The notes under the pieces were generated by a model. The model was not told where the DNA came from, made no database searches, and saw nothing but the letters and a program-made list of their open reading frames with translations. From assembly GCA_049602735.1 (NCBI GenBank), contig JBMYRW010000007.1, forward strand, positions 4,370 to 68,369: a DNA stretch of 64,000 nucleotides, read 5' to 3'. Within the stretch, counting starts at the first letter, position 1. Every line of letters starts with the position of its first letter. Position numbers and translations under genes: made by a program. The DNA comes from Thermoplasmatota archaeon. Lineage in GTDB: Archaea; Thermoplasmatota; E2; JACPAO01; JAHFTW01. This document shows, in pieces, positions 1 to 16,668 of this stretch.

Positions 1-1580
1 GCTGCCTGGGTGGGGACGAAGGCTTCGACTTCAAGCCCGGCGAGGGCTTCAAGGAGACCGGCCGCGAGGTCAAGCTCCGCATGTGGGTCGAGGACCTCAT
101 CGAGATGGAGGTCTACCCTGGCTTCAAGGCCAACCTATGGGCGTTCTGCGCCGAGGCGAAGGACCCCAACGACCAGTACTCCGTGGACGCCATCGAGTAC
201 CGCCACCAGGAAGGGACGCTGATGACGACGGCCGGTGCTGCCCGCGATGCCCTTGGCGACAAGTGCAGCGTGCCCGGCCCGCAGCTGCGCGTCAAGCAGG
301 GCGACCGTGTCATCGTGGAGTTCCAGAACGAGCACTTCCACCCCCACACGATCCACTGGCACGGCCAGTACGTGCCCTGGGAGAGTGACGGCGTGCCCGG
401 CAACACCCAGGACTCCGTCACCCCCGGCACCAGCTTCACCTACGACTTCATCGCTCGCCGCGCCGGCACCCTGTGGTACCACTGCCACGTGGACACCCAG
501 TTCCACGTCATGCAGGGGCTCTTCGGCGTCATTATCGTGGAGCCGCAGGACGAGACCTACGAGCCCAAGGACATCGATCGGGAATACACGTTCGTCTACC
601 ACACGCTCGTGCGTGACCAGGTGGAGGCGATCCCCCTCAAGCCGGGCGAGGTCTTGGATCCTCACGCCAAGCACCGCCACGGTGCCACCTGCGGCGCCAG
701 CGGCATCCAAGGCTGCCAGAACCCACCCGTCGATGTCTCACCCGATACCTGGATGCTCAATGGCGTGAGCCTACCAAATACGCTCGAGGATCCGGATAGC
801 CTCATCAAGATCGATGTGGGCGAACGGGTCCGGGTCCGCTTCCTGAACGCTGGCGAGACGGTGGAGACGATCCACACCCACGGCCACGACATGCTCGTGA
901 CGCACCGCGACGGCAACCCCCTGCCGCCGGCGGCCCGCTTCTACGTCGACACCCTGCTCATCGGCCCCGCCGAGCGCTACGACGTGGTCATCGAAGGCCA
1001 CACGCCGGGCGCCTGGATGATGCACACGCACGTCGATGGCCATGTCACCAACGACCACATGGCCCCCGGCGGCGGCATGAGCATGATCGTCTACCCTGGG
1101 TTCGAAGACAAGCTAATGAGCAAGAAGGGCGAGCTTGCGGGCGGCCTACCGTACCAGGAGCCGCTCAACATCCCGGCCGACCTGTTCGACAGCGCCCTGT
1201 TCCGCTTCCTGGGCCCCGACAGCCCCAGCCCCACTTTGGAGGACTCCTGGACGTTCCCCGTCTCGTTCCCCTGTGCCTCCCGCAGCGCCACGTTCACGGC
1301 CGCACTTGACCCCAACCACCTCTTGGCAGGGCAGGCGCAGCCGGTGACGGTCACCTTGACGGCGCCGGATGGCACCCTGGTCAAGGAGTTCGCGCTCGAC
1401 TCAGGCAACCGCACCGCGTCCTGGAGCGAAGTGGCCGAGAACCTCCAGATGGGCGACTACACGGCCAGCGTCAGCGGCACGCTCGTCGACGGCAACCTGG
1501 AACTCTCTGTCCACGTGGACTACTACGAGACGGAAGACCAGCTCTCGGCGCTTGGTCGCAGTTGCGTCAACCCGGCGTAG
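1..1580 (+). CDS. Multicopper oxidase, 5'-truncated by window edge (probable lipoprotein)
   Basis: Copper-ligand motifs HWHG, HCHV, HTHGHD and MHTHVDGH in track ORF 81..1580. The same frame stays open back to nt 3 and reads CLGGDEG, which resembles the AGC-L/I-acidic lipobox of other secreted proteins in this window. The true start therefore lies upstream of the window. Confidence 0.85.
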   Translation, partial: CLGGDEGFDFKPGEGFKETGREVKLRMWVEDLIEMEVYPGFKANLWAFCAEAKDPNDQYSVDAIEYRHQEGTLMTTAGAARDALGDKCSVPGPQLRVKQGDRVIVEFQNEHFHPHTIHWHGQYVPWESDGVPGNTQDSVTPGTSFTYDFIARRAGTLWYHCHVDTQFHVMQGLFGVIIVEPQDETYEPKDIDREYTFVYHTLVRDQVEAIPLKPGEVLDPHAKHRHGATCGASGIQGCQNPPVDVSPDTWMLNGVSLPNTLEDPDSLIKIDVGERVRVRFLNAGETVETIHTHGHDMLVTHRDGNPLPPAARFYVDTLLIGPAERYDVVIEGHTPGAWMMHTHVDGHVTNDHMAPGGGMSMIVYPGFEDKLMSKKGELAGGLPYQEPLNIPADLFDSALFRFLGPDSPSPTLEDSWTFPVSFPCASRSATFTAALDPNHLLAGQAQPVTVTLTAPDGTLVKEFALDSGNRTASWSEVAENLQMGDYTASVSGTLVDGNLELSVHVDYYETEDQLSALGRSCVNPA

Positions 1581-10351: not shown

Positions 10352-10609
10352 ATGAAACGCGTCACCCTCCTGGTTGCTGCCAGTCTTCTGACCGCCCTCC
10401 TTCTCGTTCCCGCCCCCGCGGCCGCCACCGCGCCCGTGACGGTCGAGCCCTGTCACGGCCCCAGTGGCTCCCAAAGCCATGGGGTCTACCTGAACGGGGT
10501 GCTCTTGGTTTGCGCGGCGCTCTTCACGTACGTCGGTGAATGTGAGGGCTTCCATGGCTCCGGCGTGGGGCTCTACGTCAACGGCCGCGAGGTCTTCTGC
10601 ATCCATTAG
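10352..10609 (+). CDS. Small secreted Cys-rich protein, family A paralog 1
   Basis: MKRVTLLVAASLLTALLLVPAPAAATA signal peptide. The mature part is about 58 aa with 4 Cys and a C-terminal GLYVNGREVFCIH. It shares the A-family pattern with the next two genes. Confidence 0.75.
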   Translation: MKRVTLLVAASLLTALLLVPAPAAATAPVTVEPCHGPSGSQSHGVYLNGVLLVCAALFTYVGECEGFHGSGVGLYVNGREVFCIH

Positions 10610-10618
10610 AGGTGGACC

Positions 10619-10870
10619 ATGAAGGCTCTCCTCTACGCGACGACGCTCGCCTGCGCCCTTCTGCTGCTACCTGCGGCCCCTACTTCGGCCGCTCCCCTGG
10701 AGGTCAAGGACTGTCCGGCGCCGCCGGGCATGTACGGGACCGGCGTCTATTGGCAAGGGTTCATGCTGGTCTGCGTGCCCTCGCCGGCCAAGGTCGACGA
10801 ATGCCGCGGCTTCCATGGTCCCGGCATCGGCCTGTACGCCAACGGCCGCGAGGTCTTCTGCATCCATTGA
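10619..10870 (+). CDS. Small secreted Cys-rich protein, family A paralog 2
   Basis: Signal peptide MKALLYATTLACALLLLPAAPTSAA and a mature part APLEVKDCPAPPG..GVYWQG..VC...ECRGFHGPGIGLYANGREVFCIH. GGTGG lies 3 nt upstream of the ATG, which is 9 nt after the previous stop. Confidence 0.8.
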   Translation: MKALLYATTLACALLLLPAAPTSAAPLEVKDCPAPPGMYGTGVYWQGFMLVCVPSPAKVDECRGFHGPGIGLYANGREVFCIH

Positions 10871-10877
10871 GGTGAAC

Positions 10878-11129
10878 ATGAAGGGACGAATCCTCGCCAC
10901 GTGCATGGCACTCTTCATCGTGGGTCTTGCCCCTGCAACCCATGCCTCTGCACCGGTGGAAGTCCGTGAATGTCCGGCCCCTCTGGGCTCGTATGGCATC
11001 GGCGTCTACTGGAACGGCAACCAGATGGCCTGCGTTCCGCTGGATGTCTATGTTCGCCAATGTGCCGGCCATCCCAGTGCTGGCTACGAACTGGTGGTGT
11101 TCGGTCGCGGCATGGGCTGCATCCACTGA
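10878..11129 (+). CDS. Small secreted Cys-rich protein, family A paralog 3
   Basis: MKGRILATCMALFIVGLAPATHASA signal peptide and a mature part APVEVRECPAPLG..GVYWNG..AC...QCAGH...GRGMGCIH. GGTGA lies 2 nt upstream of the ATG, which is 7 nt after the previous stop. Confidence 0.8.
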   Translation: MKGRILATCMALFIVGLAPATHASAPVEVRECPAPLGSYGIGVYWNGNQMACVPLDVYVRQCAGHPSAGYELVVFGRGMGCIH

Positions 11130-11192: not shown

Positions 11193-12182
11193 GTGCACGC
11201 CGGCGTACCCCTGGCCACCGAATCCCGCAGCGGTCGCATCGAGGCGGTCCATCAGGGTCACGCGGTCCTGTTGGCGCCGGATGGCACGGTGGCTGCATCG
11301 TGGGGCGACCCGGAGCTGGCGACGTACTGGCGTAGCAGCGCCAAGCCGATCCAGGTGCTCACGTTCCTCGCGGCCGGCGGCCCGGGCGCGATCGGGCTCC
11401 CGGACGATGAGGTGGTTGCCCTCGCCTGCGCCAGCCATTCGACGCAGCAGCGCCACCTGGACCTGAGCCGTCGTTTCCTTGCGGCGGCGGGGCTGGTGGA
11501 GGCCGACTACGGTTGCGGCGGCCACGAACCGATCGGGCCGGGCGGGGTCCCGGGCCCGTGGTCGGCGGTCCATAACAACTGCTCCGGCAAGCACGCGGCC
11601 ATGCTGGCGGCGTGTCGGTTGCGTGGATGGCCGACTGAAGGATACCTGGACCCGCACCACCCGATCCAGCAGGCCATCCTGGCCGACGTGGCACGTCTCA
11701 CCGGCCGCGACGCGGCGTCCATCGAGGTGGGCGTGGACGGTTGCCGGGCGCCGACGTTCTGGTTGTCGCCCTTGGACCTGGCGCGGGCGTTCCAGCGCCT
11801 CGACCAGGAGCCAGTCGGGCAGCGCGTCTTCGATGCCATGGCCCTGTGGCCGGTGCTGGTCGGCGGCGAGGGGCGTTTCTGCACGGCGTTGCCCCGCGCG
11901 ACCCGCGGTGATGTGGTGGGCAAGGTGGGGGCCATGGGGCTCTACGTCGCCCTCCACCGACCCACGGGAGCTGCGCTGGCGGTCAAGGTCACCTCCGGGC
12001 CCCGCATGCCGGTGCAGGAATCGGTGGCGTGCGCGCTGGCGGAGGCGGCGGGGTGGCTGGACGACGACGCACGCTCGGCGCTGGCACCGTTCCAGCGGCA
12101 GGTCCTGATGGATACGCGCGGCTGTCCAGTTGGGGAGCTGGAGCCATCGCTACCGGGCGGCAACCACGTTTCCGGGCCCTGA
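11193..12182 (+). CDS. Asparaginase II family (PF06089-like) protein
   Basis: SRSGRIEAVHQGHAVLLAPDG..., WRSSAKPIQ, CASHS, NNCSGKHAAML and GVDGC are motifs characteristic of the Rhizobium-type asparaginase II family. GTG start. Confidence 0.65.
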   Translation: MHAGVPLATESRSGRIEAVHQGHAVLLAPDGTVAASWGDPELATYWRSSAKPIQVLTFLAAGGPGAIGLPDDEVVALACASHSTQQRHLDLSRRFLAAAGLVEADYGCGGHEPIGPGGVPGPWSAVHNNCSGKHAAMLAACRLRGWPTEGYLDPHHPIQQAILADVARLTGRDAASIEVGVDGCRAPTFWLSPLDLARAFQRLDQEPVGQRVFDAMALWPVLVGGEGRFCTALPRATRGDVVGKVGAMGLYVALHRPTGAALAVKVTSGPRMPVQESVACALAEAAGWLDDDARSALAPFQRQVLMDTRGCPVGELEPSLPGGNHVSGP

Positions 12183-12220
12183 TCAAATGAATTCCGTGCA
12201 CGTGCGTCGATAACCAAACG

Positions 12221-12236
12221 GTTGCGAATCCAACCA
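12221..12236. promoter_or_regulatory. Inverted repeat GGTTG-N6-CAACC upstream of family B paralog 1
   Basis: aaacGGTTGcgaatcCAACC lies about 75-90 nt upstream of ATG 12309 and about 16 nt upstream of a TATA-like cctataac (12252-12259). Confidence 0.45.
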
Positions 12237-12308
12237 ACCCCCTGATGGCTCCCTATAACCGATCGGACCTCGTCAGAGGTCGCCGCACGAGCGGCATGAG
12301 GACCACCA

Positions 12309-12590
12309 ATGAAGACGAAGGCACTCCTGGCTATTGCACTACTTGCGACAACGGCGATCACCGTCGCTCCCCCGGCGGCTGCCCACCATCACTGCGACTC
12401 TCCGTTCAGTGACGTGCGCTACCTCTGCTACTACCTCGTCCACGACCCGTGGCGCGTCGTCTGCGACCAGATCAAGAAATACGTCGGGCCGGATCTTTGC
12501 TGGCTCGTCCCAAGCTTGACGGATGGAGCCCATCTCGCGGAATTGGAGCTGATCCAAAGCCCCATTGAAGGGTCGTCTCCTCAAGGGTAG
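12309..12590 (+). CDS. Small secreted Cys-rich protein, family B paralog 1
   Basis: Signal peptide MKTKALLAIALLATTAITVAPPAAA, then HHHCD...YLC...WRVVCDQIKKYVGPDLCW (4 Cys) and a variable tail. Confidence 0.8.
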   Translation: MKTKALLAIALLATTAITVAPPAAAHHHCDSPFSDVRYLCYYLVHDPWRVVCDQIKKYVGPDLCWLVPSLTDGAHLAELELIQSPIEGSSPQG

Positions 12591-12599
12591 CACGAACAT

Positions 12600-12627
12600 C
12601 ATCTCTTTTCCTTCCTTTCTTTTTTAT
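12600..12627 (+). terminator. T/C-rich tract after family B paralog 1
   Basis: catctcttttccttcctttcttttttat includes a T6 run, consistent with archaeal oligo-T termination. Confidence 0.45.
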
Positions 12628-12706
12628 CAATCGTGCAGGCAGCTAGATCTGCACCACGCCTCACGGCCTCTTCGACTCGACGCCAGGGCTCGCGGAATCG
12701 GAGCAA

Positions 12707-12719
12707 CGGTTCGGAACCG
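12707..12719. promoter_or_regulatory. Perfect palindrome CGGTTC-G-GAACCG upstream of family B paralog 2
   Basis: caaCGGTTCGGAACCGcc lies about 95 nt upstream of ATG 12813. A second inverted repeat GGTTT-N6-AAACC lies at 12723-12738. Confidence 0.5.
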
Positions 12720-12812
12720 CCTGGTTTTCGTACAAACCGAAGCTAGTATGGTATCTCAAATGTTGGATGGACTAGGTCGGATCGCTGCGGAAACGTAGCA
12801 GGATCGAACACC

Positions 12813-13079
12813 ATGAAATCCACCATGATTCTCGTATTGGGTCTGCTCTTGGCCACCCTAGGGCCCGCGAACCTAGGCTCCGCAGGCCACAACTGCGATC
12901 TGGAGAACCGGGACTTGGACTACGTCTGCGACAACTACCATTCTCCTGGAGGAATGACCTGCATCTGGATCAAGCACTACGTAGGGCCGGACCTGTGTTG
13001 GTTGCTCCATGAATGGTTCTTTGCCATTGGAGCCGATCTTGAGCCTACGCAACAGATTGCTGCCGGCCAACTTGACTGA
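12813..13079 (+). CDS. Small secreted Cys-rich protein, family B paralog 2
   Basis: Signal peptide MKSTMILVLGLLLATLGPANLGSA, then GHNCD...YVC...MTCIWIKHYVGPDLCW (4 Cys). Confidence 0.8.
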   Translation: MKSTMILVLGLLLATLGPANLGSAGHNCDLENRDLDYVCDNYHSPGGMTCIWIKHYVGPDLCWLLHEWFFAIGADLEPTQQIAAGQLD

Positions 13080-13103
13080 GTCGGCTGCACCCGGCCCCCA
13101 CGT

Positions 13104-13150
13104 CGCTTCTCGTTTTCCCCTCCATCGCCCTCGTTTCTTCGACCTCTTCT
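13104..13150 (+). terminator. CT-rich tract after family B paralog 2
   Basis: cgcttctcgttttcccctccatcgccctcgtttcttcgacctcttct. Confidence 0.4.
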
Positions 13151-13256
13151 GGAGGTTTCCGGCGATCGTCTGATCCGATGCTTATGAGCTGGTCCCGAAC
13201 CCACGGTTCTGCTGATGTTTCTCAGTAGAGCGATGGCTCCTACACTGATCAGAAAC

Positions 13257-13277
13257 GGTTCGGTTGTTCCACGAACC
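13257..13277. promoter_or_regulatory. Inverted repeat GGTTCG-N9-CGAACC upstream of family B paralog 3
   Basis: gaaacGGTTCGgttgttccaCGAACC lies about 75-90 nt upstream of ATG 13349. An additional GAACC-CAC-GGTTC lies at 13197-13209, and the direct repeat ccattggacag occurs at 13280-13290 and 13330-13340. Confidence 0.45.
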
Positions 13278-13348
13278 AGCCATTGGACAGTGGCTTAACC
13301 CTGGAACAGATTTCCGTCTCCTTGTCCCCCATTGGACAGGAACGAACC

Positions 13349-13648
13349 ATGAAGACGATGATGATCCTGATGACACTGATCGCGGCCTCCGCGATGATCC
13401 CGACCGCGCAGGCGGACCACGCGTGCCCCGACCCCGGCACCGACCGTGAATACATCTGTGAGAACATGCACACTCCTTGGAGGATCGTGTGCGATCAGAT
13501 CAAGAAGTACGTCGGTCCGAGCCTGTGCTGGATCTTCGGGGATCTCGAACATGAGGCCCAGACGGCGCTGTTCTCCGCGGCCGCTGGCGCCGAGTTCATC
13601 GATTTCCTGGGCGCCTCCGATTCGGATTCGTTCGAATCTCAAGCCTAG
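13349..13648 (+). CDS. Small secreted Cys-rich protein, family B paralog 3
   Basis: Signal peptide MKTMMILMTLIAASAMIPTAQA, then DHACP...YIC...WRIVCDQIKKYVGPSLCW (4 Cys) and an acidic tail. The start is taken at internal ATG 13349 of track ORF 13283..13648. Confidence 0.8.
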   Translation: MKTMMILMTLIAASAMIPTAQADHACPDPGTDREYICENMHTPWRIVCDQIKKYVGPSLCWIFGDLEHEAQTALFSAAAGAEFIDFLGASDSDSFESQA

Positions 13649-13741
13649 GCCTTGTAGGTAGGGGCTTCCCGATGCCGACGTAGCGCGGCTTCGGGGGCCT
13701 CTTCCCTTGCGGGTTAAGTGGCCTGCGGGTCTGGCCGCATC

Positions 13742-15979
13742 ATGGCCCTGGCAGACCTCGGCATGGACCCCCGCGTGGCGGCTGTGCTGGAAGACCAGGG
13801 CATCCAGGAGTTGTACCCGCCCCAGGTGGAGGCGTGGCAGGCGCTGCGTGGAGGCGGCAACGTCCTGGTGGCGGTGCCGACGGCGTCCGGCAAGAGCCTC
13901 GTGGCGTACCTGGCGATCCTGCACCGTTGGCTGGCGACGGGGAAGAAGGCGCTCTACATCGTGCCCTTGCGGGCGCTGGCGTCGGAGAAGCACGAAGAGC
14001 TGCAGGCGTTCAAGGAGCTCGGCCTCAAGGTGGGCCTCGCGACGGGCGACCTGGACGAGCGGGACCCGCGCCTCGGTCGCTTCGATGTCATCGTCTGCAC
14101 CTCCGAGAAGGCGGACAGCCTGCTGCGCCACCGCACGTCGTGGGTGGATGACATCGGCTGCGTGGTGGCGGACGAGCTCCACCTCATCCATGAGCCCAAG
14201 CGCGGCCCGACGCTGGAGGTGATCCTCAGCCGCTTCCGTGGCCTGCTGCCGGATGCCCAGATCGTCGGCCTTTCTGCCACGGTCACCAACGCGGCGCAGG
14301 TGGCCCGCTGGCTCGGCGCCGACCTCGTCCATTCCACGTGGCGCCCCGTCGACCTGCGCCTGGCGACGTACCACGGCAACGCCCTGGAGTTCTGGCAGCC
14401 CCACGGCGAGAAACGGGAGCTGGAAGCGGGCGGCGACCCCGTGGTGGGACTCGTGGAGGACGCCATCGACCAAGGCGGCCAGGCCCTGGTGTTCGTGAGC
14501 ACCCGGCGATCGGCCGAGGCCCAGGCGAAGCGCCTTGCCGGCCCGGTCGCCGCCAAGCTCAACGCCGAAGAACTGGCGGCGCTGGAAGAGGCCGTCGGGG
14601 AGCTGGCCAAGGGCAGCGGCGACGACGTGCCGTCCAACGTCAAGGCCCTCCAACTCCTGGTCAAGCGCGGCGCCAGCTACCACACGGCGGGACTCGACTC
14701 GGCGCAACGACGCTTCATCGAGGACGCCTTCCGCCGCGGCCTGATCAAGGTCCTGTGCGCCACGCCGACCCTGGCGGCCGGCGTCAACACCCCCGCCCGG
14801 CGGGTCATCATCCGCGACCTGCGGCGCTTCGAGGCCGGCTATGGCAACGTGCCGCTGCCGGTGATGGAGGTGCAGCAGATGATGGGGCGCGCCGGCCGGC
14901 CCCGTTACGACCCCTACGGCGAAGCGGTCCTCTTGGCCAAGAGCGCCGAAGAGCGCGACGCCATCGTCGAGACGTACCTCCTGGGGGAATCGGAGCCGGT
15001 CACGAGCAAGCTGGCCGGCGAAGGGCCCCTGCGCATCCACACGCTGGCCAGCATCGCCGGCGGCTACTGCGCCACCTTCGCCGAGCTGCGCGCCTGGCTG
15101 GAGTCCACCTTCTGGGCCGCCGAGACCGACACGTGGATCCTCGAAGAACGCCTGGAGGACGTGCTCTGGTTCCTGGAGGACAACGGCTTCGTGGAGCGGG
15201 ACGGCGGCCAGCTGCGCGCGACGCTGTTCGGCAAGCGCACCAGCGACCTCTACATCGACCCCGCCTCCGCGCTCCGTCTGCGGGAAGCCCTCGGCTCCGC
15301 CCGGCCCAAGGCGACGGACATGGGCCTGCTGACCGCTGTGGCCGGCTGCCCCGAAGTGTTCCCGCTCTACCTGCGCAAGGCGGACGACTGGGTGCAGGAA
15401 CGCTACTGGGAACTGGAAGGGGAATGGCTCGTGGACGACCGCGACATGGAGGCGGCCATGAGCTTCGCGAAGACCGCGCTGCTGCTGCGGGACTGGATGA
15501 ACGAGGTGCCGCAGCGGGACATGGAGGAACGGTACCAGATCGGCCCCGGCGACGTCCGGCTGCGCCTCGATACCGCGCGCTGGCTCGTCCACGCGTTCCG
15601 TGAACTGGCCCGCGCCTTCCGCGCCGACTGGCAGGCCCACCTGGCCGAGATCGGCGTCCGTCTCGAATCCGGCGTCAAGAAGGAGCTCCTCCCGCTCCTG
15701 AAGCTCCGCAACGTGGGCCGCGTCCGCGCCCGCACCCTCCACGCCGCCGGCTTCCACACGCCGGACGCCCTCAAGGGAGCCCCCGTCGCGCGGCTGGCTG
15801 CCCTCGCTGGGGTCGGCGACCGCATCGCCCGCGACCTCCTGCGCCAAGTGGGCGACGACCCGGATGTGGCGCCCAAGGAGCAGCCCCCCGCTCCGAAGGC
15901 GAACCCGGACGAGGACGACGGGGCCCCGCCCACGCCGGACAACGGTCAAGCCAGTCTGGCACAATGGGGGGGCGCGTGA
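13742..15979 (+). CDS. hel308: Ski2-like DNA helicase Hel308
   Basis: ELYPPQVEAW, Walker A PTASGKS, the DELH box (VVADELHLI), ATPTLAAGVNTPARRV and MMGRAGRP. The N-terminus MALADLG fits Hel308 better than the GTG at 13718. Confidence 0.9.
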   Translation: MALADLGMDPRVAAVLEDQGIQELYPPQVEAWQALRGGGNVLVAVPTASGKSLVAYLAILHRWLATGKKALYIVPLRALASEKHEELQAFKELGLKVGLATGDLDERDPRLGRFDVIVCTSEKADSLLRHRTSWVDDIGCVVADELHLIHEPKRGPTLEVILSRFRGLLPDAQIVGLSATVTNAAQVARWLGADLVHSTWRPVDLRLATYHGNALEFWQPHGEKRELEAGGDPVVGLVEDAIDQGGQALVFVSTRRSAEAQAKRLAGPVAAKLNAEELAALEEAVGELAKGSGDDVPSNVKALQLLVKRGASYHTAGLDSAQRRFIEDAFRRGLIKVLCATPTLAAGVNTPARRVIIRDLRRFEAGYGNVPLPVMEVQQMMGRAGRPRYDPYGEAVLLAKSAEERDAIVETYLLGESEPVTSKLAGEGPLRIHTLASIAGGYCATFAELRAWLESTFWAAETDTWILEERLEDVLWFLEDNGFVERDGGQLRATLFGKRTSDLYIDPASALRLREALGSARPKATDMGLLTAVAGCPEVFPLYLRKADDWVQERYWELEGEWLVDDRDMEAAMSFAKTALLLRDWMNEVPQRDMEERYQIGPGDVRLRLDTARWLVHAFRELARAFRADWQAHLAEIGVRLESGVKKELLPLLKLRNVGRVRARTLHAAGFHTPDALKGAPVARLAALAGVGDRIARDLLRQVGDDPDVAPKEQPPAPKANPDEDDGAPPTPDNGQASLAQWGGA

Positions 15980-16594: not shown

Positions 16595-16668
16595 GGTCCC
16601 ATGGGGTAGCTTGGATATCCTGAAAGCTTGCGGAGCTTTTGACCCGTGTTCGAATCGCGGTGGGACCG
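16595..16668 (+). tRNA. tRNA-Arg (anticodon GCG)
   Basis: GGTCCCATGGGGTAGCTTGGATATCCTGAAAGCTTGCGGAGCTTTTGACCCGTGTTCGAATCGCGGTGGGACCG. It has acceptor stem GGTCCCA/TGGGACC, anticodon stem AAAGC/GCTTT with loop TTGCGGA, and T arm CCGTG-TTCGAAT-CGCGG. Confidence 0.85.

What the first reader, a model, noticed from the sequence alone, without database searches (positions are those of the whole stretch)
12183..13700. Lower-GC segment carrying three solo-promoter paralogs of a second small secreted 4-Cys family (family B)
Three genes of 93, 88 and 99 aa each have a signal peptide. The mature N-terminus begins with a His-containing tripeptide directly before the first Cys (HHHC, GHNC, DHAC). The conserved core is H-x-C-[DP]-(5-6)-Y-[LVI]-C-(7-8)-C-[DI]-[QW]-IK-[KH]-YVGP-[DS]-LCW, followed by unrelated C-terminal tails. 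Unlike family A, the copies are separated by 220-270 nt spacers. Both the genes and the spacers are visibly less GC-rich than the rest of the window, with many codons ending in A/T. That fits an accessory or recently acquired segment. An N-terminal His next to a Cys in the mature protein suggests possible Cu/Ni binding (ATCUN- or His-brace-like). The variable tails resemble diversifying effector or pheromone families.
Basis: seen in the sequence. Interest (0 to 1): 0.65.

Follow-up and report, generated by a model that had tools for sequence, protein, structure and literature searches.

The report
Orphan archaeal secreted His-Cys mini-proteins
Three neighbouring genes in an uncultured Thermoplasmatota archaeon encode small exported, disulfide-bonded proteins with no detectable relatives outside one sister lineage; their only invariant non-cysteine residues are histidines placed where they could hold a copper ion, but no function has been shown.

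Summary
Three + strand genes (12309-12590, 12813-13079, 13349-13648; 93, 88 and 99 aa) have Sec-type signal peptides, predicted mature N-termini HHHC/GHNC/DHAC, four Cys and the core CDQIKKYVGPDLCW. They lie in the lowest-GC stretch of the window (57.5% against 68.7%).

They are real, old paralogues: core dN/dS is 0.15-0.5 and dS is saturated. No Pfam, NCBIfam, PHROGs or PDB match was found. Searches of 5.8 billion and 1.84 billion proteins returned only the three proteins themselves.

Synteny found what sequence searches missed. A sister lineage (three MAGs) carries three small secreted genes in the same slot directly upstream of Hel308, also in low-GC DNA. These begin D/G-H-x-C and have six Cys. 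Across all six proteins only His2, a His 3-6 residues after Cys2, and four Cys are invariant.

The segment is therefore a lineage-specific, fast-evolving slot in a conserved backbone, not a recent acquisition.

His at mature position 2 fits the H2N-Xxx-His (GHK-type) Cu(II) motif. It does not fit ATCUN or a histidine brace. Extracellular metal binding is my best guess (about 0.4) and is untested; a signalling or antagonistic peptide is the main rival. AlphaFold models were of low confidence.

The parts
11193..12182 (+). Upstream flank: L-asparaginase II gene (conserved backbone)
   Evidence: Pfam PF06089, E 2.6e-88. Asparaginase lies upstream of Hel308 in relatives L009, L010, L015 and L016.
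12183..12308 (+). Spacer 0, upstream region of B1. GC 0.571. Contains a TATA-like CTATAA at 12253-12258 and an SD-like GAGGA at 12298-12302. Promoter assignment is inferred only.
   Evidence: Sequence read; GC.
12309..12590 (+). B1, 93 aa. Signal peptide 12309-12383; predicted mature protein from 12384 (HHHCDSPF...). Four Cys. The tail after LCWLVP is variable.
   Evidence: NCBI ACPGQL_03065.
12591..12812 (+). Spacer 1, GC 0.527. Contains a T/pyrimidine-rich tract at 12603-12628 just after the B1 stop (archaeal terminator-like), the motif CAACGGTTCGG at 12704-12714, and an SD-like AGGA before the ATG.
12813..13079 (+). B2, 88 aa. Signal peptide 12813-12884; predicted mature protein from 12885 (GHNCDLEN...). 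Four Cys.
   Evidence: NCBI ACPGQL_03070 is called 84 aa from a later Met; the Logan call is 88 aa.
13080..13348 (+). Spacer 2, GC 0.565. Contains a pyrimidine-rich tract at about 13104-13149 after the B2 stop, the motif AAACGGTTCGG at 13253-13263, and an SD-like AGGA before the ATG.
13349..13648 (+). B3, 99 aa. Signal peptide 13349-13414; predicted mature protein from 13415 (DHACPDPG...). Four Cys and an acidic tail predicted with low confidence.
   Evidence: NCBI ACPGQL_03075.
13742..15979 (+). Downstream flank: Hel308/Ski2-type archaeal helicase. It anchors the slot in which family B and its L002 counterparts sit.
   Evidence: Pfam DEAD, Helicase_dom4_arc and HHH_5. 745-aa NCBI protein P0010. 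Synteny.

Best explanation
These are three real, anciently duplicated genes for small acidic proteins.

Proposed pathway:
1. The proteins are exported through the Sec pathway.
2. Signal peptidase I cuts after a small-x-Ala site.
3. The mature proteins are held together by two disulfides, or three in the sister lineage.

They form a lineage-restricted, fast-evolving family in a variable slot directly upstream of the Hel308 helicase gene, within an otherwise conserved housekeeping backbone. The low GC is a long-standing property of this slot. It is best explained by weak constraint and AT-biased mutation, with gene birth and death, not by recent import.

Most likely function (inferred, not shown): extracellular binding of a metal ion, probably Cu(II). 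The free amino terminus, the residue 1-2 amide and the invariant His2 would form an H2N-Xxx-His 3N chelate. The conserved His just after Cys2 (and perhaps a third His in the C-terminal helix) would supply the fourth ligand. A Cys4-Cys15 disulfide would bring these groups together. Such a protein could buffer, scavenge or hand over copper outside the cell, in an organism whose relatives encode cupredoxins in the same slot (the window itself encodes a multicopper oxidase).

The descriptive part (real, secreted, orphan, syntenic, not recent HGT) I hold at about 0.85. The metal-binding function I hold at about 0.4.
For: Real genes:
- Core dN/dS is 0.15-0.52 with dS above 1.
- GC3 > GC1 > GC2 in frame.
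- SD-like motifs precede each ATG.
- Independent gene calls exist.

Secretion: all six proteins have K/R, a hydrophobic run, Pro, then small-x-Ala.

Orphan status:
- Only self hits among 5.77e9 proteins and 1.84e9 representatives.
- Nothing in Pfam, NCBIfam, PHROGs or PDB.
- No loci in GTDB genomes, JGI metagenomes or IMG/VR.

Synteny: L002, L011 and L017 carry three small + strand genes directly upstream of Hel308, starting A|DHIC, A|DHTC and A|GHSC, in 0.53-0.60 GC DNA against 0.65 flanks. A regex for this architecture hit only these genes in about 190 kb, six frames.

Conserved residues: in the six-protein mature alignment the only invariant residues are H2, C4, C15, H19, C26 and C38. A third His lies in the C-terminal helix in 5 of 6. 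Position 1 varies (D/G/H, and G to D within one population) while His2 never does.

Chemistry: H2N-Xxx-His peptides chelate Cu(II) through amine N, amide N and imidazole N. This leaves a fourth equatorial site that accepts an imidazole; log K is 12.6 for GHK at pH 7.4 (PMC8653159).

Context:
- Cupredoxin genes fill the same slot in L001, L006 and L014.
- A multicopper oxidase lies at 81-1580.
- The mature proteins are acidic, pI 4.2-5.3.
Against: - No experiment, expression data or confident structure exists. AlphaFold pLDDT was 56 and 46, and Foldseek found nothing.
- The cleavage site is predicted by eye only. If cleavage is shifted by one residue, the motif changes.
- Homology of the window and L002 mature domains is not established by sequence statistics. 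hhalign gives E 6e-7 with signal peptides but E 0.052, probability 1%, without them. The link rests on position, architecture and a short CD.IK...C[WF]L match.
- The spacing from Cys2 to the second His varies from +3 to +6, so 'invariant H19' depends on the alignment.
- No copper-handling gene is adjacent; the multicopper oxidase is 11 kb away.
- If any Cys is free, it could be the metal ligand, or could reduce Cu(II).
Confidence: 0.4

Rival explanations
1. Secreted signalling or antagonistic peptides (pheromone-like or archaeocin-like). The disulfide-stapled core would be a scaffold, and the fast-changing surface and tails would set specificity toward a receptor or target in the same or competing cells.
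For: - Distribution is restricted to one lineage, with tandem paralogues and unrelated tails.
- Within the L002 population the small genes show 2 synonymous, 4 nonsynonymous and 1 nonsense difference, against 12 synonymous and 1 nonsynonymous in the adjacent Hel308. Fisher p is 0.007 pooled and 0.022 for L002 against L011 only.
- Copy c carries a premature stop in 2 of 3 MAGs.
Against: - No receptor kinase, immunity gene, dedicated exporter or processing enzyme is adjacent.
- The mature proteins are acidic, not cationic or amphipathic like most membrane-active peptides.
- This reading does not explain why two His next to Cys are the only invariant non-Cys residues.
Confidence: 0.2
2. A metal site built from side chains only: His2, Cys4, Cys15 and His19 as a Cys2His2-type Zn(II) or Cu(I) site. 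Only Cys26-Cys38 would then form a disulfide, and the N-terminal amine would play no part.
For: The pattern H-x-C ... C-x(2-5)-H is present in all six proteins. The number of remaining Cys is still even (2 in the window proteins, 4 in L002).
Against: - Thiolate sites are unusual in exported proteins of aerobes and prone to oxidation.
- This reading gives no reason for the His to sit exactly one residue after the predicted signal-peptidase site in every copy while residue 1 varies.
Confidence: 0.1
3. The low-GC segment is a recent horizontal acquisition from a lower-GC donor.
For: - This is the strongest compositional outlier in 64 kb.
- The family is absent from this slot in relatives whose Hel308 is 64-70% identical.
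- Lower-GC relatives exist: locus L013 has 0.588 GC.
Against: - The same slot, the same gene number and the same GC dip occur in a lineage whose Hel308 is only 72-76% identical.
- The paralogues are old, with dS above 1.
- No integrase, transposase or flanking direct repeats were found, and the nearest tRNA is 3 kb away beyond two backbone genes.
- Core GC3 (0.77-0.84) is close to the genome value. Tails (0.45-0.71) and spacers are lowest, which is the pattern expected from relaxed constraint.
Confidence: 0.1
4. The ORFs are not functional genes: chance ORFs or decaying pseudogenes in a long non-coding gap.
For: They are short and lack homologues, their codon usage is atypical, and one counterpart in the sister lineage has a premature stop.
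Against: - Three copies keep 18 identical core residues, including all Cys. Most nucleotide differences in the core are synonymous (pS 0.58-0.72 against pN 0.30-0.41).
- The signal peptides are intact and the start context is conserved.
Confidence: 0.03

Closest known systems
H2N-Xxx-His (XH, His-2) Cu(II)-binding peptides such as Gly-His-Lys (GHK)
   Same: A free N-terminus is followed by His at position 2. B2 and L002-c literally begin Gly-His. The 3N chelate leaves a fourth site for an imidazole, and a conserved second His could fill it (PMC8653159).
   Different: Known XH examples are short peptides or fragments of animal proteins, not a genetically encoded, signal-peptide-processed, disulfide-rich prokaryotic protein family. 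Binding has not been tested here.
ATCUN motif proteins (H2N-X-X-His; serum albumin DAH, hepcidin-25 DTHFPIC)
   Same: These are N-terminal amine-plus-His Cu(II)/Ni(II) sites created by signal or propeptide removal. Hepcidin is also a small secreted Cys-rich peptide with Cys soon after the motif (PMC6121404 abstract; sequence from my own knowledge).
   Different: ATCUN needs His at position 3. Only B1 (HHH) has it; the other five proteins have His2 and no His3.
Histidine-brace and monohistidine-brace extracellular copper proteins (CopC, YcnJ-CopC, YcnI/DUF1775, LPMOs)
   Same: These are extracellular proteins in which signal-peptide cleavage exposes the metal ligand at the very N-terminus, and a distal His completes the site. 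They act in copper binding and hand-over outside the cell (PMC12154828).
   Different: These need His as residue 1 and have beta-sandwich or cupredoxin-like folds of over 100 aa. Here residue 1 is D/G/H, the proteins are 60-77 aa and tentatively helical, and no sequence or profile match was found.
Small secreted cysteine-rich protein families (fungal SSCPs and effectors, plant NCR peptides; ciliate Euplotes pheromones from my own knowledge)
   Same: These have a signal peptide and a short mature domain with an even number of Cys. They occur as tandem paralogues, diverge fast outside the Cys framework, and are restricted to particular lineages (titles and abstracts).
   Different: Those families are eukaryotic, and none shares this Cys/His pattern. 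No comparable archaeal family turned up in my literature searches.

Membership tests
H2N-Xxx-His (XH / GHK-type) N-terminal Cu(II) motif | His at position 2 of the mature chain | tested here: met
   His2 is present in all six proteins and all population variants, given cleavage after small-x-Ala.
H2N-Xxx-His (XH / GHK-type) N-terminal Cu(II) motif | A free alpha-amino group on residue 1 (actual cleavage site) and measurable Cu(II) binding | not testable with these tools
   The cleavage site was inferred by the -3/-1 rule only. There is no predictor, proteomics or biochemistry.
ATCUN motif | His at position 3 of the mature chain, with a free N-terminus and residue 2 not Pro | tested here: not met
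   Only B1 (H-H-H) has His3. B2 GHN, B3 DHA and L002 DHI/DHT/GHS do not.
Histidine brace (CopC, LPMO) / monohistidine brace (YcnI) | His as residue 1 of the mature protein, giving both the amine and the imidazole ligand | tested here: not met
   Residue 1 is H only in B1; it is G or D in the other five. Definition from PMC12154828.
Histidine brace (CopC, LPMO) / monohistidine brace (YcnI) | Sequence or fold membership in the CopC, DUF1775 or AA9-type families | tested here: not met
   No Pfam or NCBIfam hit at E up to 0.1-1. No PDB sequence hit. The Foldseek search was empty, but the model was of low confidence.
Ni-hook of nickel superoxide dismutase (own knowledge: mature H1-C2-x-x-P-C6-G-x-Y) | His1-Cys2 and Cys6 at the mature N-terminus | tested here: not met
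   His is at position 2 and Cys at position 4, and no second Cys occurs within 10 residues.
Sec/signal peptidase I substrates | A positively charged n-region, a hydrophobic h-region of about 10-16 residues, and a c-region with small residues at -3 and -1 | tested here: met
   All six have K/R, a 13-16 residue hydrophobic run, Pro at -5 to -7, and A/G/V at -3 with A at -1. There is no twin-arginine motif, no lipobox and no class III (pilin) motif. Judged by inspection only.
Recently acquired genomic island | Compositional deviation from the host genome | tested here: met
   57.5% GC against 68.7%; GC3 z of -4.2 and -5.5 for B1 and B2.
Recently acquired genomic island | Mobility genes, a tRNA or direct-repeat boundary, and absence from related lineages at the same site | tested here: not met
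   No integrase, transposase or flanking repeats. tRNA-Arg at 16595 is not adjacent. The same slot is occupied and low-GC in L002, L011 and L017.
Window 'family A' (10352-11129) | Detectable profile similarity of the mature domains | tested here: not met
   hhalign of B (6 sequences) against A (5 sequences): probability 0.03%, E 0.94.

The most novel reading that the evidence does not exclude
Family B and its L002 counterparts would be the first genetically encoded prokaryotic protein family to use a signal-peptidase-generated H2N-Xxx-His terminus plus a disulfide-positioned distal His as a high-affinity extracellular Cu(II) site. In effect they would be protein 'chalkophores' or copper shuttles serving the blue-copper and multicopper enzymes of aerobic Thermoplasmatota.
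Probability: 0.2. Interest if true: 0.6.

Novelty: new variant of a known kind. Interest (0 to 1): 0.38.

Why it matters
Secreted small proteins of uncultured archaea are almost uncharacterised. This case shows that they can be invisible to sequence search: nothing was found in 5.8 billion proteins, yet synteny recovered relatives.

If the N-terminal X-His plus distal His site binds Cu(II), it would add a new, minimal solution to extracellular copper handling, alongside CopC, YcnI and LPMO-type histidine braces. It would also give a simple motif (signal peptide, A|X-H-x-C) for mining others.

If instead these are signalling or antagonistic peptides, they would be a rare handle on cell-cell interactions in Thermoplasmatota. 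As it stands, this is a well-defined orphan family with a testable hypothesis, not a demonstrated new mechanism.

Tried and rejected
1. Sequence homology. The following found only self hits or nothing:
   - profile search of 5.77e9 proteins;
   - exhaustive HMMER of the core against 1.84e9 representatives (five weak hits are long repetitive proteins matched in short pieces and were dismissed);
   - L002-a as query;
   - Pfam, NCBIfam and PHROGs;
   - PDB sequences;
   - pattern plus tblastn scans of GTDB genomes, JGI metagenomes and IMG/VR.
2. A Hel308 scan of JGI metagenomes found nothing.
3. Structure. AlphaFold2 on mature B3 with a 3-sequence alignment gave pLDDT 56 (helical). On L002-a alone it gave pLDDT 46. 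The Foldseek PDB search was empty. The helical call is only tentative.
4. Homology of the window and L002 families. The signal-peptide-inclusive hhalign (E 6e-7) overstates the case. Mature-only comparison gives E 0.052. I therefore rest the link on synteny and architecture and mark it as probable.
5. Relation to family A: rejected.
6. ncRNA or riboswitch in the spacers: no Rfam hit of note.
7. The sigma-70 promoter scan is not applicable to archaea, and its two hits lie inside B3.
8. The idea that low GC merely reflects a high non-coding fraction: rejected. Other intergenic DNA is mostly 0.60-0.75 GC, and the genes themselves have low GC3.
9. Lipoprotein, pilin-like, Tat and haem c (CxxCH) readings: rejected on sequence. 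There is no lipobox, class III motif or RR, and the L002 CxxC is followed by P or Q, not H.
Full report
**What is there**

The window is a high-GC (68.4%) stretch of an uncultured Thermoplasmatota archaeon. NCBI holds it as a MAG contig of 68,446 nt with locus tags ACPGQL_03065, 03070 and 03075.

Between the L-asparaginase II gene (11193-12182; Pfam PF06089, E 2.6e-88) and a Hel308-type helicase gene (13742-15979) lie three + strand ORFs:
- B1, 12309-12590, 93 aa
- B2, 12813-13079, 88 aa
- B3, 13349-13648, 99 aa

They share 38-46% identity over the full length and 49-58% in a 43-44 residue core. Eighteen core columns are invariant, including four Cys, two His and the block IK.YVGP.LCW.

Each protein starts with Met-Lys, a 13-16 residue hydrophobic run, a Pro, and a small-x-Ala site. 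Cleavage there gives HHHC..., GHNC... and DHAC.... The only errors are two gap counts in the motif: 7 residues, not 5-6, and 10-11 residues, not 7-8.

**Composition**

- The segment 12183-13717 has 57.5% GC against 68.7% for the rest of the window. It is the minimum of all 1535-nt windows (mean 0.684, sd 0.023).
- GC3 is 0.72, 0.67 and 0.82, against 0.879 +/- 0.037 for 44 long genes. B1 and B2 lie below every one of them.
- The spacers (0.53-0.58) are also below nearly all other intergenic stretches, which are mostly 0.60-0.75. The dip is therefore not just a matter of non-coding fraction.
- Within the genes, core GC3 is closest to the genome value (0.77-0.84). The tails are lowest (0.45-0.71).

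**Are they genes?**

Yes.
- The frame shows GC3 > GC1 > GC2.
- In the core, synonymous differences are saturated (pS 0.58-0.72, dS 1.1-2.4) while pN is 0.30-0.41. That gives dN/dS of 0.15-0.52. These are old duplicates under purifying selection.
- An SD-like GAGGA or AGGA sits 6-10 nt before each ATG.
- T/pyrimidine-rich tracts follow the B1 and B2 stops (12603-12628 and about 13104-13149), as expected for archaeal termination.
- Spacers 1 and 2 share AACGGTTCGG about 100 nt upstream of the next ATG. These are the only two matches in the window. This suggests the duplicated unit carried its own upstream region.

Separate transcription units are thus plausible but not shown.

The tails are unrelated in sequence and predicted with pLDDT below 50. 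In B1 the tail seems to contain a 22-nt tandem duplication that shifts the frame relative to B2.

**No detectable relatives by sequence**

- A profile search of 5.77 billion proteins returned only the three proteins themselves.
- An exhaustive HMMER search of the core against 1.84 billion cluster representatives did the same. Its five marginal hits were long repetitive proteins.
- Pfam, NCBIfam, PHROGs and PDB sequences gave nothing.
- Scans of GTDB genomes, JGI metagenomes and IMG/VR gave nothing.
- AlphaFold2 gave low-confidence models: pLDDT 56, tentatively three helices, for mature B3, and 46 for the L002-a protein. Foldseek found no match.

**Relatives found by position**

I used Hel308 as an anchor. 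One sister lineage appeared, represented by three nearly identical MAG contigs (L002, L011, L017). Its Hel308 is 72-76% identical to the window's.

This lineage has three small + strand genes directly upstream of Hel308, in DNA of 0.53-0.60 GC against about 0.65 flanks. Their products are 87, 90 and 83 aa. They have the same kind of signal peptide, and their predicted mature N-termini are DHIC, DHTC and GHSC. They have six Cys. The two extra ones (a CxxC and a C-terminal Cys) are missing together from the window proteins, as expected for a lost disulfide pair. L002-a also has CDPIKDFDRCFLCP where the window proteins have CDQIKKYVGPDLCWLVP.

A regex for 'hydrophobic N-terminus, [AGS]-x-H-x-C, at least 4 Cys' hit only these genes in about 190 kb of window plus loci, all six frames.

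Profile-profile comparison is significant with signal peptides (E 6e-7) but not for the mature parts alone (E 0.052, probability 1%). I therefore treat homology as probable. It rests on slot, strand, copy number, architecture, shared composition and the short motif, not on alignment statistics. The failure of the large searches to recover the L002 proteins, although L002-a is in the database, shows that the family may be wider than can be seen.

**The slot**

Other relatives, with Hel308 64-70% identical, keep the backbone: acyl-CoA dehydrogenase, asparaginase, Hel308, CGI-121, HAD, and so on. They fill the space before Hel308 differently:
- a conserved small 2-TM protein in L004, L009, L015 and L016;
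- cupredoxins in L001, L006 and L014;
- family-A-like modular Cys proteins in L014, L016 and perhaps L013

.

The window's neighbours are ordinary housekeeping genes. There are no mobility genes or flanking repeats, and the nearest tRNA is 3 kb away.

The segment is therefore a long-lived variable slot, not a fresh island. Three observations together point to weak constraint with AT-biased mutation and gene turnover as the cause of the low GC:
- the GC dip persists in two lineages this far apart;
- the lowest GC is in the tails and spacers;
- in the L002 population, non-synonymous and nonsense changes are in excess: 2 synonymous, 4 nonsynonymous and 1 nonsense, against 12 synonymous and 1 nonsynonymous in the adjacent Hel308. 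Fisher p is 0.007 pooled and 0.022 for one pair.

This last step is inference from general knowledge of mutation bias.

**What they may do**

Across the six mature proteins the only invariant residues are His2, Cys4, Cys15, a His 3-6 residues after Cys15, Cys26 and Cys38 (B3 numbering). Five of six also have a His in the C-terminal segment.

Residue 1 varies (D, G, H). It even changes G to D within the L002 population, while His2 does not change.

A His fixed one residue after a signal-peptidase site is the signature of the H2N-Xxx-His class of Cu(II) chelators. In these, the amine, the first amide and the imidazole give a 3N plane, and the fourth position is open to another imidazole (PMC8653159). 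A Cys4-Cys15 disulfide would bring the second conserved His next to this site. The proteins are acidic (pI 4.2-5.3).

The family does not fit ATCUN, which needs His3, or a histidine brace, which needs His1 (PMC12154828). Only B1 (HHH) satisfies these.

Copper proteins are frequent in this neighbourhood in relatives, and a multicopper oxidase lies at 81-1580. That is only circumstantial.

I therefore propose extracellular Cu(II) binding (buffering or hand-over) as the most likely function, at about 0.4. The main rivals are:
- a signalling or antagonistic peptide family (0.2), which explains the turnover but not the His pattern;
- a side-chain-only Cys2His2 site (0.1).

**Verdict**

The 'recently acquired' reading is not supported. 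The metal-binding idea is plausible but should be restated as an X-His motif.

This is a new orphan family within the general class of small secreted Cys-rich proteins, with a concrete, cheap biochemical test. Interest is moderate.

Noticed in passing
window 10352-11129 (three tandem genes); L016 4256-4564; L014 3759-4205 and 4659-4949; L013 1475-2218: Family A is three small secreted 4-Cys proteins, each ending C-I-H. It is built from a repeated 2-Cys module ([VI]-E-[VP]-x-x-C ... G-[VI]-Y-x-x-G-x3-4-C). Proteins with 2-3 such modules sit near Hel308 in other Thermoplasmatota MAGs, so family A is more widespread than family B. It is unrelated to B (hhalign probability 0.03%). A3 also has low GC3 (0.67). 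The L016 member would begin H-D-H after cleavage.
   Followed up: partly
L009 7481-7894; L015 1665-1988; L016 4581-4931; L004 7245-7541: A conserved small 2-TM membrane protein (motif GYFGPLA.PAI.A.VGVL ... RLF..P.F) with no Pfam match lies directly upstream of Hel308 in several relatives. It is absent from the window and from L002, where family B occupies the slot.
   Followed up: partly
L001 6577-6960, 7015-7356, 9508-9921(-); L006 9582-9956(-); L014 4209-4562(-): Cupredoxin genes (PF13473/PF00127) occupy the same Hel308-upstream slot in other lineages.
   Followed up: partly
L011 937-1128 and L017 3425-3616, compared with L002 3264-3515: Copy c of the sister-lineage triplet carries a TGG-to-TGA premature stop in two of three MAGs. 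This removes the CxxC and the C-terminal Cys. L017 also changes mature residue 1 from G to D.
   Followed up: yes
window 12519-12561: The B1 tail appears to contain a tandem duplication of about 22 nt (TGGAGCCCATCTCGCGGAAT / TGGAGCTGATCCAAAGCCCCAT). The second copy is read in a different frame from the matching B2 sequence (13026-13045).
   Followed up: partly
window 12704-12714 and 13253-13263: The motif (C/A)AACGGTTCGG occurs only twice in the window. Both copies lie about 100 nt upstream of the B2 and B3 starts, and in spacer 1 the motif is part of the palindrome CGGTTCGGAACCG. It could be a regulatory site or a remnant of the duplicated unit.
   Followed up: partly
window 81-1580: A multicopper oxidase gene (Cu-oxidase_3/_2 domains) lies 11 kb upstream of the segment.
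   Followed up: no
L008 144-3260: In one relative the Hel308 ORF is called as 1004-1038 aa, with an N-terminal extension that gives weak CoiA_N/CoiA_nuc hits. This is either a fusion or a mis-joined upstream nuclease gene.
   Followed up: no
window 12813-12824: NCBI annotates B2 as 84 aa from the second Met (MILVLG...). The Logan call and the paralogue alignment favour the 88-aa MKST... start.
   Followed up: partly
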